Source of the DNA: an uncultured archaeon
GTDB taxonomy: Archaea; Asgardarchaeota; Thorarchaeia; Thorarchaeales; Thorarchaeaceae
DNA length: 33,509 nt
Assembly: GCA_964473825.1 (NCBI GenBank)
Contig: CAYYQL010000026.1
Coordinates: forward strand, 1 to 33,509
Direction of reading: 5' to 3'
Shown: positions 28,727 to 31,700 of the stretch, piece by piece
Position numbering within the stretch: position 1 is the stretch's first letter
How the letters are laid out: every line of letters starts with the position of its first letter
Made by a program: the position numbers and the translations under genes
Notes under the pieces: model-generated
The model's database searches: none
What the model was told of the DNA's origin: nothing
The model's input: only the letters and a program-made list of their open reading frames with translations

Positions 28727-31700
28727 ATGGGACGCAGACCACGATTGCTACGCCCGAATGTTGTGCTGGGGAGAGCTAAGCATGCCGGTCTGATGGCCCT
28801 TACCAACCTCCTTGCCCCTAGAGCCAGTGGCAACCTCGTGAAGTACTATCGCTCTACCTCAAAGATGTGGTCTACAGTGCGAGCTGCCCTCAAAGCTCAG
28901 GGCGGGAAGAAAGAAGATTACCTAATTCTTAACGGCACCGAGCCAAACATGCGGAAGTCGTTTCTTCAGTTCGTGTGGCACAGCACCGTACCCTACGGCA
29001 ACAGGGAGTTCAAACGGGTCTACGACTGGACGGAGGGTACAGTAGGACCACTCAATGCGCTCTTGAACTACGCGGGAGCACGACTCCGTGACCTGGCCAT
29101 GACGAGGTATCCCTTTCCTGATCCACGGGTCTTCCAGATAGCAAGATTCCCGGATGGCACGGTGAAGGTCTACTCACTGGCCCTCGTTAATCGACTGAAG
29201 GCAAAGGGTCTCTACCCGCCAAGTGACTTCGGCAAGAACACCGAGACCTCCTGGAAGGCGGGTTACAGCGGGACAACAAAGACTCCACAGGTGTACCTTG
29301 CTCACCCCACCCTCCCAAGTCTTGATTTTGTCGATATGATCCGCGCCCACGTTGTCGAGCTCTGCAGGCAGTGTTTCATCTACAGCGTTCCTAGGGCAGA
29401 TGCACACCGCTACATCCAGCTGCTAATCTACCGGCTGCGCCCCTTCCTCGATTGGGTCTACACCGAGAGAGCCGCAGGCCGACCCAACTTCAATCGGGAT
29501 GCTAACAAGGAACTCCGAGAGATTGTACTTGAGATCAGAGCGTTGTACGGACATCATGCCGGACAGAGACGGTCGGTCACTCGATCCCTAGATATTCCAT
29601 CGCCAATCACTCTTGGGGATATCCGTAAGGAGGTAAAATGTCTCCTGCAAAGGACGGTGGATGAGGGTGAGATGACACTCTATCAGAGCATGAGGGACCA
29701 GATCGATGCCGGGACTGTGGTCGAACGGGATGCGGACAAGCTCACTGACCAGCTCTCCTCATTGAGTTCACAGGAGGGGAACCGCTGGCACAGGATCTTG
29801 CCATCAGGGTTTCACCACCCTGCCTCACTGAAGCAGGTGGTCTTTGCAGGGGACACCATGCTGGACCAGCCCTCCTCAGTTCTGGCCGTAGCCGAGCTTC
29901 CCGTAGACTCGCGTCGGGGACAGGCCGACCTTGTGTTCTTCGTCCGCCGAGCAGTCGAGAATCGGACCGTCTGGACACCAATCATGATTCTCGAGGTCAA
30001 GACCAAGAGTGCCTTCGACATCAACCTCTACGGTGTTGAGGTGGGGAGTCGTGAGGAGAAGGAGTACGCGCCCGCCTTCTTTGCATGGAAGAGGGGGATC
30101 ACACCCGATGAGTGGGATACATTGATCACATCGCCACCGATGAAAAGCACAGTAGACCAGCTTGACGCATACGAGCAGGCCATCATCAGGGAGTACAAGC
30201 GCACGGCGGACTTCGACCCGACACCACCCGCCTCTCTCTGGAAAGGGGTCATCACCCTAGATGCTGACCAGATTCCTGTTGATGCATACTCCGCATTCCA
30301 GACTCTCGTCGAAAACCTGCTGGTGGAACTGACAGATGACACCTTCCAGCCCCCATCAGAGACCATCTCACAGGTGCCTGACACAGGTAGCATATTGCCT
30401 TCTCCCCGGGTGGCGCTGCTCCTTCTGCCAGACGCAGGTCCTAAGAGACTCCTCTCTCAGAGAACCCCTCCGGCCGAGTTGGTCTCCGACGACCCCTTTG
30501 CAGATCGCATTACAGACGACCGCATACTCACAGTCTACGTGTCCGTTTCCTCCCCGACCTCATCTGGCAGGACCGCGGCATGGCAGTCATCGAACTGGCA
30601 TCTTCTCCACCATATAAGAGAGTGCAGAGAGGCCTCATTGCAAGAGATAGGCATGTTCTGGTTGGATTTGCTTGGCGACTACCAGACCGGCCAGCTGACC
30701 AATCTACGGTTTGGATTTGACAGACTCCTTGCCGAGAAGAGGATATCCCGGCAGGAACACGGAGAGCTGGTCTCCGAGGTCAAGGACATCTCCTTCATTG
30801 ACCTTCACGCCTACACAGAGGGAGTCGTAAGGGGCGAGAACCAGTCGATAGAGAGCATGTTGAACGCCATCCGCAGTGCTGTTGAAACAGAGGGCGAGAA
30901 GATTATCATCGTCGACGCCTGGGACGAACTCAGTACAATGATTCCAACCCACTCTCGTCATCTCCTCCGTACCCTAGAAGTGCAGCTCTTGGATACACTC
31001 CCCTCGACAGACACGAACATCATCTGGATCGATACCGGGACTGAGGAAACGATGACCTCAGCAGACTGTCAACGAGGATGTATCAAACCCCTGCGCCACG
31101 ACTCACCCCGCAGGACCCACCTCGACGAGGTGATCTACAACCTCCCGTCGCCTCCGCGTGTCTTTGGGAACCTCTCGCCCTGGCGCGAGGACGTACGAGT
31201 CATTGTTCAGGACACTCCCACGTCAGCACCACCGTGGAGGACCACTGTCCACGTCCCTCATCTCGTGGGTGCAGCAGAGCGATTCCGGGGAGCCTCCTCG
31301 AGGCATGGGTCACTCTCACAAGATGATGTGGCAAGGCTCGTGGTGAACGACTCTCCGATGTATGCGCGGAACATCACCCTCTCCTCTATCCAGTCCGGGC
31401 TGGGGAACCTAACCATGGACACCCTGGACAGCGTCATGGAAAAGTCCTGCAGTCTGGTTTCGAGTCTATATCGTCCGAGAGATGGCCAAGTACAGCAGCC
31501 GCAGGAGGAACTGGAGACTCCGCAGATACAGGTACAGGGTATCAGCTCCGCGAGATCGAGTTCGCAGCGGCAACGACTCCGATTCCAACCGGCTAGAGCA
31601 CCTCCAGACCCTGTACGTTCTCAGGACAGGTATGTCGAGTCTGAGAAGATCACGCGACGGTGGTACTATGAACGGAATCCTACACCTCGGCCTGAGATAC

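What the first reader, a model, noticed from the sequence alone, without database searches (positions are those of the whole stretch)
28727..29600. Hidden, highly diverged Cas1-like catalytic domain lacking the N-terminal beta domain
The motif order matches Cas1. LNGTE72 resembles E. coli LRGIE141G. YGNREFKRVYDWTEG resembles YGVTWNGRRYD..DWEKG. PLNALLNYA resembles the generic Cas1 motif vNalLnYgY. H193 followed by D200xxD203xxR206 resembles H208...D218xxD221xxK224. The Glu lies only 71 aa from the start, so the dimerisation beta domain appears absent. There is also an insertion of about 50 aa before the His. The putative metal-binding E/H/D set is retained, suggesting an active integrase with a different assembly mode.
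Basis: partly seen in the sequence, partly recalled or inferred. Interest (0 to 1): 0.85.

Follow-up and report, generated by a model that had tools for sequence, protein, structure and literature searches.

The report
Beta-domain-less Cas1-like integrase domain (aCas1)
The first 285 residues of a giant Thorarchaeota protein form a very diverged Cas1-type integrase domain that lacks the usual N-terminal beta domain; it belongs to the computationally catalogued but never bench-tested Asgard "aCas1-TnpB" elements.

Summary
E72, H193, D203, R206 and N110 are 98-100% conserved in 149 homologues that go down to 27% identity.

Evidence for a Cas1 catalytic domain:
- Pfam and PDB sequence searches find nothing.
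- An AF2 model (pLDDT 87) matches only Cas1-family chains at the top of an exhaustive structure search. The 12 best rows have Z 8.9-12.9, the next row 6.5. All align to the Cas1 alpha-helical catalytic domain.
- A Cas1 profile hits family members at E 6e-7.
- Profile-profile alignment puts E72 on E. coli E141.

No beta domain can be encoded: an in-frame stop lies 9 codons upstream of the start.

The domain heads a protein of about 1,875 aa. A PD-(D/E)xK motif set and a RecA-like fold follow it. The gene is always paired head-to-head with a 560-720 aa TnpB.

This pair fits the "aCas1-TnpB" loci of Asgard archaea (Altae-Tran 2023, citing Makarova 2020), where aCas1 is proposed as the transposase. 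In support, this genome holds 26 copies of the tnpB-side element end. I found no Y1 or serine transposase in it.

Catalysis and transposition remain untested. This scan already followed up other copies of the element in the same genome. Verdict: a real feature and a new member of a known kind.

The parts
28727..29581 (+). Cas1-like alpha-helical catalytic domain (aa 1-285) with no N-terminal beta domain
   Evidence: AF2 model has pLDDT 87.2 and pTM 0.84. In VIA-align wide the top 12 rows are all Cas1, casposase, RT-Cas1 or Cas4-Cas1 chains, Z 8.9-12.9, with 153-193 residues aligned to the catalytic domain; the next row is Z 6.5. hhalign gives P=0.0012. A Cas1 HMM hits family members at E 6e-7.
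28940..28942 (+). E72 codon, aligned with catalytic E141 of E. coli Cas1
   Evidence: hhalign and hmmsearch alignments. Conserved in 146 of 149 sequences; the other 3 have D.
29054..29068 (+). N110-N114 (NALLN), counterpart of the Cas1 'pvNallS' helix motif
   Evidence: N110 is conserved in 149 of 149 sequences.
29105..29296 (+). Family-specific insertion (aa 127-190), predicted as four beta strands and one helix, variable in length across the family
   Evidence: Secondary structure of the model. Length distribution across 149 sequences. Largely missing in the C6 paralog.
29303..29344 (+). H193...D200xxD203xxR206 block, proposed counterpart of E. coli Cas1 H208...D218xxD221xxK224
   Evidence: H193, D203 and R206 are conserved in 149 of 149 sequences. 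The D200/D203/R206 register on D218/D221/K224 comes from the extended hhalign and from the local match sLDFVDMIRaH to vLDLaEeFRq, P=0.16 on its own. The H193-H208 equivalence is inferred.
29774..30346 (+). PD-(D/E)xK nuclease-like region (aa 350-540): E390, D401, E423xK425, Q478xxxY482
   Evidence: E390, D401, K425, Q478 and Y482 are invariant; E423 is read from the sequence and the consensus ILEIKTK. The model shows an alpha/beta core. The nearest named Atlas clusters shown with a Pfam family all carry PD-(D/E)xK-type families, at scores 0.79-0.83, so this is a lead only. There is no significant profile match to Cas4. This part was not tested by a fold search on its own.
30509..31267 (+). RecA-superfamily fold (aa 595-847) with a degenerate Walker A (SPTSSGRT)
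   Evidence: Foldseek pdb gives E 2e-6 and prob 1.00 to RAD51 paralogs, KaiC and RadA. VIA gives Z 12.1 over model residues 271-523. The residues after the motif's Gly are not conserved in the family consensus.
31268..33508 (+). Conserved C-terminal region of unknown fold, cut by the contig end with about 280 aa missing
   Evidence: 88% identical over 1594 aa to the 1874-aa protein P0001. An 85-89% identical copy on contig C39 holds the 3' end. No Pfam hit.
26371..28533 (-). Divergent partner gene: 720-aa TnpB/Cas12f-like protein
   Evidence: PF07282 at E 2e-11, and OrfB_IS605 weakly. The same head-to-head pairing is seen in own contigs C2 and C6 and in loci L044 and L045.
26339..26370 (-). 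Conserved 32 nt after the tnpB stop, ending ...CAATGAACGGT: the tnpB-side end of the element (probable omegaRNA 3' end; the guide would start in the flank)
   Evidence: 26 copies in the genome all end at the same base and are followed by unrelated sequence. The segment is conserved in L044.
28534..28726 (.). Shared 193-bp AT-rich intergenic region with two conserved TTATAAGT-type boxes and a palindrome at 28604-28638
   Evidence: Reading the boxes as archaeal promoters is inference.

Best explanation
Window 28727-29581 encodes a highly diverged Cas1-superfamily catalytic (alpha-helical) domain. It starts directly at the N-terminus of a giant protein of about 1,875 aa, so the canonical Cas1 N-terminal beta-sandwich domain is missing.

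Shown here:
- The domain has the Cas1 catalytic-domain fold.
- E72 aligns with the Cas1 catalytic Glu.
- The family keeps E72, H193, D200, D203 and R206 nearly invariant.
- A PD-(D/E)xK motif set and a RecA-like fold with a degenerate P-loop follow the domain.
- The gene is always paired head-to-head with a TnpB-type RNA-guided nuclease gene.
- The pair lies in different genomic neighbourhoods and occurs in several copies per genome.

Inferred:
- This is the 'aCas1' of the Asgard aCas1-TnpB elements.
- The Cas1-like domain uses an E/H/D metal site to join the 3'-OH ends of the ~8-kb element to target DNA, as Cas1 and casposases do.
- The PD-(D/E)xK module cuts or trims DNA ends.
- The RecA-like module, or other parts of the giant protein, replaces the beta domain and Cas2 in assembling the integrase.
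- TnpB with its omegaRNA cuts empty donor sites so that the element is retained or homes, as in IS200/IS605 elements.
For: Fold. The AF2 model has pLDDT 87. All 12 top rows of an exhaustive structure search are Cas1-family chains (8flj_A and 4n06_B at Z 12.9; casposase 6opm_A at Z 10.8; the E. coli Cas1 C-domain 3nke_A at Z 8.9). They align to the catalytic domain only, and the next unrelated row is Z 6.5. Foldseek also lists many Cas1 chains, at prob up to 0.85.

Sequence. hhalign gives P=0.0012 with E72 on E141 and NALLN on the pvNallS motif. A Cas1 HMM hits family members at E 6e-7 to 1e-4 over HMM positions 113-225.

Conservation. H193, D203, R206 and N110 are conserved in 149 of 149 sequences, and E72 in 146 of 149.

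Context.
- The same TnpB + giant pair occurs in own contigs C2 and C6 and in L044 and L045, each with different flanking genes.
- The domain occurs in 18 of 27 sampled genomes of the same taxonomic family and in 1 of 124 other Asgard genomes, with 1-18 matches per genome.
- The right end lies 50-66 nt after the giant gene's stop.
- The genome holds 26 copies of the tnpB-side end, each with a different flank.
- I found no Y1 TnpA and no serine recombinase in the 95.7%-complete genome.

Literature. Altae-Tran 2023 (PMC10691335) describes aCas1-associated TnpBs in two Asgard groups and proposes aCas1 as the transposase. Its GTTCACTCA motif lies about 100 nt downstream of tnpB in family loci L041 and L045.
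Against: - The window's own sequence does not reach significance against Pfam Cas_Cas1 or my Cas1 HMM.
- The second half of the domain aligns only weakly (P=0.16). The extended hhalign puts Cas1 H208 on G182, not on H193.
- I could not measure whether E72, H193 and D203 come together in the model.
- For mostly helical models, Z of about 13 can arise without homology (tool note).
- I found no terminal inverted repeats or target-site duplication.
- The giant-gene-side end is not repeated in the genome, unlike the tnpB-side end. Mobilisation of the many short copies by aCas1 is therefore unproven.
- The GTTCACTCA motif is absent from this copy.
- No biochemical data exist for any aCas1.
Confidence: 0.6

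Rival explanations
1. The Cas1-like domain acts as a guide or spacer acquisition enzyme for the neighbouring TnpB, with the PD-(D/E)xK module acting like Cas4. The system would be an array-less proto-CRISPR adaptation-plus-effector pair, not a transposase.
For: Cas1 together with a RecB/Cas4-type nuclease motif set is the CRISPR adaptation combination. PMC10691335 reports a hypervariable stretch downstream of tnpB bounded by a CRISPR-repeat-like GTTCACTCA motif. That motif is present in L041 and L045.
Against: - In the window's group, all 26 copies of the tnpB-side end stop at the same base and continue into unrelated DNA with no conserved downstream motif. The variable stretch is therefore plain flank.
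- The window has no CRISPR array.
- cas2 occurs only beside the canonical cas1 on contig C19.
- The patchy, multi-copy distribution fits a mobile element.
Confidence: 0.12
2. The domain is a Cas1-derived fold that no longer catalyses DNA joining. It would serve as a DNA-binding or scaffold module in a giant nuclease/RecA-like protein with another role, such as repair, defence or regulation of TnpB.
For: The canonical dimerisation domain and Cas2 are missing. The adjoining P-loop is degenerate. There is no significant Pfam Cas1 score. I detected no target-site duplications or terminal inverted repeats.
Against: The exact Cas1 metal-site positions stay invariant across 149 sequences down to 27% identity. 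That is hard to explain without catalysis. Neither a Y1 nor a serine transposase (PF01797, PF00239) was found in a genome with 26 element ends.
Confidence: 0.18
3. The resemblance to Cas1 is convergent or a chance similarity of helical bundles, and the motifs are coincidental.
For: Foldseek E-values are all above 0.1. The family profile finds no PDB sequence. The exhaustive HMM search finds no canonical Cas1. Helical models often reach Z 13 (note).
Against: Twelve of the twelve top structural rows are Cas1-family chains, with a gap of more than 2 Z units to the next row. Independent sequence statistics agree: E 6e-7 and P 0.0012, both in the register of the catalytic Glu and the N-x-L-L motif.
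Confidence: 0.05

Closest known systems
aCas1 of Asgard 'aCas1-TnpB' loci (groups Cas1H-Asgard-1/-2; Altae-Tran et al. 2023, PMC10691335, citing Makarova et al. 2020, CRISPR J 3:156)
   Same: - Asgard (Thorarchaeota) host.
- A very diverged Cas1 homologue next to TnpB.
- Mobile-element behaviour.
- The published GTTCACTCA motif lies downstream of tnpB in related family loci (L041, L045).
   Different: - This copy lacks the GTTCACTCA motif, so it probably belongs to the other of the two published groups.
- The 2020 paper is not held in the library, so I could not check whether it describes the domain anatomy shown here (no beta domain, an insertion of about 50 aa, PD-(D/E)xK and RecA-like modules).
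CRISPR Cas1 integrase (Pfam PF01867; e.g. E. coli Cas1, PDB 3NKE/5VVK; A. fulgidus Cas1, 4N06)
   Same: The fold of the alpha-helical catalytic domain, the catalytic Glu position, the N-x-L-L helix motif and the D-x-x-D/E-x-x-K/R helix.
   Different: - No N-terminal beta-sandwich domain.
- No Cas2 and no CRISPR array.
- An insertion of about 50 aa before the His.
- Fused to about 1,600 further residues.
- Below every Pfam threshold.
Casposases (Cas1 transposases of casposons; PDB 6OPM)
   Same: Cas1-fold enzyme proposed or shown to act as the transposase of a self-contained mobile element (Z 10.8, 192 residues aligned).
   Different: Casposases keep the beta domain and carry a C-terminal HTH. 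Casposons carry a family B DNA polymerase and have terminal inverted repeats and target-site duplications (general knowledge of the family). I saw neither terminal inverted repeats nor target-site duplications here.
Cas4-Cas1 fusions (PDB 7MI4, 8D3P)
   Same: A PD-(D/E)xK RecB-type motif set and a Cas1 catalytic domain on one polypeptide.
   Different: The order is reversed, with Cas1-like first. I detected no significant sequence similarity to Cas4 (P=0.08, over the QxxxY stretch only).

Membership tests
Cas1 superfamily (catalytic domain) | Alpha-helical catalytic domain fold | tested here: met
   VIA-align wide: the top 12 rows are all Cas1-family chains, Z 8.9-12.9, rmsd 3.8-4.2 Å, with 153-193 residues aligned to chain residues of about 81-345. 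The next row is Z 6.5.
Cas1 superfamily (catalytic domain) | Catalytic Glu (E. coli E141) in the 'mglE' helix | tested here: met
   E72 aligns to E141 in hhalign (P=0.0012) and in the hmmsearch alignments of family members. It is 98% conserved.
Cas1 superfamily (catalytic domain) | Catalytic His and Asp/Glu (E. coli H208, D221) forming one metal site with the Glu | tested here: inconclusive
   H193 and D203 are invariant. D200/D203/R206 fall on D218/D221/K224 only in low-confidence alignments. H193 is not placed on H208 by hhalign. No model coordinates were available to measure distances.
Canonical Cas1 (Pfam PF01867 Cas_Cas1) | Score above the Pfam gathering threshold | tested here: not met
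   No hit at E<=1. The six-frame PF01867 search of the genome finds only the canonical cas1 on contig C19.
Canonical Cas1 (Pfam PF01867 Cas_Cas1) | N-terminal beta-sandwich dimerisation domain | tested here: not met
   The catalytic domain starts at residue 2-5. There is an in-frame stop 9 codons upstream. The homologues share the same start.
CRISPR adaptation module | Adjacent cas2 and a CRISPR array | tested here: not met
   The window has no array. The only Cas2 match in the genome is on contig C19.
aCas1-TnpB element (PMC10691335) | Diverged Cas1 homologue adjacent to tnpB in an Asgard archaeon | tested here: met
   The TnpB gene at 26371-28533(-) hits PF07282 at E 2e-11. The pairing recurs in 5 loci. 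Where sources name the homologues' organism, it is almost always Candidatus Thorarchaeota.
aCas1-TnpB element (PMC10691335) | Conserved GTTCACTCA motif after a hypervariable stretch downstream of tnpB | tested here: not met
   Absent from the window copy; only chance-level 1-mismatch hits. Present about 100 nt downstream of tnpB in family loci L041 and L045.
aCas1-TnpB element (PMC10691335) | Locus flanked by repeats | tested here: inconclusive
   I found no convincing flanking direct or inverted repeats in the C2 and C6 copies or between the two ends. The right flank of this copy is missing because the contig ends.
Casposase / casposon | Two-domain Cas1, terminal inverted repeats and target-site duplication | tested here: not met
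   No beta domain. No terminal inverted repeats or target-site duplication found. A family B polymerase was not searched for; the called neighbour genes with Pfam notes in L044 and L045 show none.
Cas4 (PF01930) | Sequence membership of the PD-(D/E)xK region | tested here: inconclusive
   The motif set E/D/ExK/QxxxY is present. hhalign against 10 Asgard Cas4 proteins gives P=0.08, over the QxxxY stretch only. A Cas4 HMM gives no hit below E 0.4.

The most novel reading that the evidence does not exclude
aCas1 is a working Cas1-family integrase that needs neither the beta dimerisation domain nor Cas2. It would be the sole transposase of TnpB-bearing elements in Thorarchaeota. That would make it a living example of Cas1 and a Cas12 ancestor cooperating in one mobile element, that is, a plausible precursor arrangement of type V CRISPR systems, with a new mode of integrase assembly built from its RecA-like and other giant-protein modules.
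Probability: 0.35. Interest if true: 0.75.

Novelty: new member of a known kind. Interest (0 to 1): 0.45.

Why it matters
Cas1 is the enzyme that writes CRISPR memory, and TnpB is the ancestor of Cas12. Elements that carry both could show how adaptation and effector modules first met.

A Cas1 catalytic domain that works without its dimerisation domain and without Cas2 would also widen what is known about how these integrases assemble.

The family has only been catalogued by computation. The anatomy and candidate active-site residues given here (E72, H193, D203), together with the defined tnpB-side element end, make direct biochemical tests straightforward.

Tried and rejected
- Pfam on aa 1-291, on the whole ORF and on 22 full-length homologues: no relevant family.
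- phmmer and the family profile against PDB sequences: nothing.
- Foldseek against the PDB for the N-terminal model: no row with E<=0.001, although many Cas1 chains appear among the weak rows.
- Exhaustive HMM search of 1.84 billion representatives with the family profile: 130 hits, all of them family members or fragments, and no bridge to canonical Cas1.
- Homodimer prediction of the N-terminal domain (two copies of A1): no verdict, score 0.00. This is not evidence either way.
- hhalign and HMM of the PD-(D/E)xK region against Asgard Cas4: not significant.
- Empty-site test using the gene downstream of the C2 copy: no orthologue in 40 related genomes, so the test could not be done.
- Search for the published GTTCACTCA motif in the window: only chance-level matches. 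A 'TGAGTGAAA' 22 nt beyond the element end looked suggestive, but it is not conserved among the 26 end copies.
- Search for terminal inverted or direct repeats between the two element ends: nothing convincing.
- The giant-gene-side end is not repeated in the genome.
- Makarova et al. 2020 could not be read; it is not held in the library.
- The 1,323-1,336-aa Asgard proteins with a C-terminal Cas1 (genomes G041 and G058) were checked as possible intermediates. They carry a complete two-domain Cas1 and are unrelated to this family elsewhere.
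Full report
**What is there**

The finding covers the first 291 codons of a very long ORF, window 28727-33508 (+). The ORF runs 1594 aa and is still open where the contig ends; the window is the whole contig C26.

The frame opens only 9 codons upstream of the ATG. Homologues start at the same MGR. No further N-terminal domain can therefore be encoded.

By comparison with an 88% identical 1874-aa protein (P0001) and with an 85-89% identical second copy on contig C39, about 280 C-terminal residues are missing here.

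**Is it Cas1-like?**

Direct sequence searches fail:
- Pfam gives no hit at E<=1.
- PDB sequences give nothing, either with the protein or with a 23-sequence family profile.
- A six-frame PF01867 search of the genome finds only the canonical cas1 on contig C19.
- An exhaustive profile search of 1.84 billion proteins finds only 130 representatives. All are giant proteins of this family or fragments of them.

Three other lines of evidence do support Cas1.

First, structure. An AF2 model of aa 1-300 is confident (pLDDT 87.2, pTM 0.84). In an exhaustive structural comparison with 48,161 PDB chains, the 12 best rows are all Cas1-family proteins. These are Cas1 of types I, II and III, phage ICP1 Cas1, RT-Cas1, Cas4-Cas1 and a casposase, at Z 8.9-12.9 with 153-193 residues aligned. 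Each aligns through its C-terminal alpha-helical catalytic domain, and the next unrelated row has Z 6.5. The tool warns that helical models can reach Z of about 13 by common architecture. The clean family-only top of the list and the gap below it argue against that here.

Second, profile against profile. hhalign of the family against an alignment of 28 Asgard Cas1 proteins plus E. coli Cas1 aligns aa 63-122 with E. coli residues 132-189 at P=0.0012. This places E72 on the catalytic E141 and NALLN on the Cas1 'pvNallS' helix.

Third, profile against sequences. A Cas1 HMM run without filters against 149 family N-termini hits several members significantly (E 6e-7, 1.8e-5, 1.4e-4 for Z=149) in the same register. 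The window's own sequence is not among the significant ones, which fits 'hidden'.

The second half of the domain is weaker. On its own, 'sLDFVDMIRaH' matches Cas1 'vLDLaEeFRq' at P=0.16. The extended alignment puts D200/D203/R206 on E. coli D218/D221/K224, but it puts H208 on G182, not on H193. I regard H193 as the likely equivalent because it is invariant and sits 7 residues before D200 (10 in E. coli). That is inference.

**Conservation**

Across 149 N-termini down to 27% identity, H193, D203, R206, N110, G91, R97 and G117 are invariant. E72 is E in 146 sequences and D in 3. D200 is 98.7% conserved.

It is predicted as a small beta sheet plus a helix. It varies from 8 to 54 residues in the family and is largely absent from the paralog on C6.

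**The rest of the protein**

Invariant residues E390, D401, K425 (in the conserved ILEIKTK, giving E423xK425) and Q478xxxY482 form the RecB/Cas4-type PD-(D/E)xK motif set. Every nearest named Atlas cluster shown with a Pfam family carries a PD-(D/E)xK-type family, but at scores that count only as leads. No significant similarity to Cas4 itself was found.

A second AF2 model, aa 325-880 (pLDDT 83), shows that aa 595-847 adopt a RecA-superfamily fold closest to RAD51 paralogs, KaiC and RadA (Foldseek E 2e-6; VIA Z 12.1). Its Walker A is degenerate (SPTSSGRT, with the positions after the Gly not conserved).

The last ~1,000 residues have no recognised domain.

**Context**

The gene is transcribed divergently from a 720-aa TnpB/Cas12f-like gene at 26371-28533 (-) (PF07282 at E 2e-11). 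The two share a 193-bp AT-rich spacer with two conserved TTATAAGT-type boxes.

The same pair recurs on contigs C2 and C6 of this genome and in two other Thorarchaeota contigs, each time between different neighbours.

In a sample of 151 Asgard genomes, the domain occurs in 18 of 27 genomes of the same taxonomic family and in 1 of 124 others, with 1-18 matches per genome, always inside open frames of 1,400-1,980 aa when complete.

Similarity between copies stops 50-66 nt after the giant gene's stop and 32 nt after the tnpB stop. That tnpB-side end (...CAATGAACGGT) is present 26 times in the genome. Every copy ends at the same base and is followed by unrelated DNA.

I found no Y1 (PF01797) or serine (PF00239) transposase in the 95.7%-complete genome.

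The window has no CRISPR array. The only cas2 lies beside the canonical cas1.

**Comparison with what is known**

Earlier notes of this scan on other copies in the same genome pointed me to Altae-Tran et al. 2023. I read the passages that mention Asgard and aCas1. The paper describes 'aCas1-associated TnpBs' in two Asgard groups and proposes aCas1 as the transposase of a distinct transposon family. It reports a GTTCACTCA motif downstream of tnpB (PMC10691335), and it cites Makarova et al. 2020 for the Asgard Cas1 variants.

That motif lies about 100 nt downstream of tnpB in two loci of this family (L041 and L045). This ties the giant proteins to the published aCas1. The motif is absent from the window copy, which probably belongs to the other group.

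A 2022 review states that Asgard genomes encode many Cas1 homologues, some possibly linked to new mobile elements (PMC8730458).

The 2020 paper is not held. I therefore cannot say whether the missing beta domain and the nuclease/RecA-like modules are already described.

I found no serine recombinase, so I do not adopt that label.

**Mechanism**

Most likely (confidence about 0.6 overall), the domain is the catalytic core of the element's integrase/transposase. On this reading the nuclease module handles DNA ends, other parts of the giant protein replace the beta domain and Cas2 in assembly, and TnpB with its omegaRNA provides retention or homing. Only the fold, the residue conservation, the gene pairing and the mobile-element behaviour are shown. 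Catalysis, substrates and assembly are inferred.

The proto-CRISPR reading (guide acquisition) is weakened for this group, because the variable stretch after the element end is simply flanking DNA.

**Verdict**

It is a new member of a computationally known but experimentally untouched kind.

Noticed in passing
window 26339-26420 (-) and 25 other places in the genome (e.g. C1:114261-114342, C15:553-634): 26 copies of the tnpB-side element end (...GTCCAACTTACAATGAACGGT) occur in one genome. That is far more than the roughly 4 giant genes or the 8 TnpB matches, so most copies must be truncated or gene-less derivatives.
   Followed up: partly
L038:5766-9776:- (G041), L037, L039:4970-8941:- (G058): Another Asgard family encodes proteins of 1,323-1,336 aa. 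They have a complete two-domain Cas1 at the C-terminus (Cas1 HMM positions 19-343, E 1e-13) behind about 940 unassigned residues, and are followed by two genes of about 270 aa. They are unrelated to the Thorarchaeota giants outside Cas1.
   Followed up: partly
L041:8101-8123 and 9912-9934 (own contig C6): In the C6 copy, the GAGTGAAC/GTTCACTC motif flanks the first of two tandem tnpB genes as a 23-nt inverted repeat. A further related copy (GGAGTTCA) lies at L041:12470-12484, beyond the second tnpB.
   Followed up: no
window 26001-33509 versus 1-13000: The TnpB/aCas1 module has 55-59% GC, against 41-47% in the first 13 kb of the contig.
   Followed up: no
window 28604-28638: A perfect 11-nt palindrome (AAGTCAAATAG / CTATTTGACTT, 13-nt loop) sits in the shared promoter region between the two genes. 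It is partly kept in the closest relative (L046).
   Followed up: partly
window 13695-15590 (-), tandem repeat 14419-15080: A 631-aa protein combines CUB, two PPC pre-peptidase domains and a caspase (Peptidase_C14) domain. The two PPC units are encoded by a 327-bp tandem repeat (82% identical).
   Followed up: no
window 2519-13182 (-): Two adjacent giant genes (1,960 aa with NHL and FG-GAP repeats; 1,594 aa with bacterial TSP3 repeats) are probably surface proteins.
   Followed up: no
G000:C39:1-2777: Contig C39 starts inside an 85-89% identical second copy of the giant gene. The window's contig probably ends where it does because this repeat broke the assembly.
   Followed up: partly
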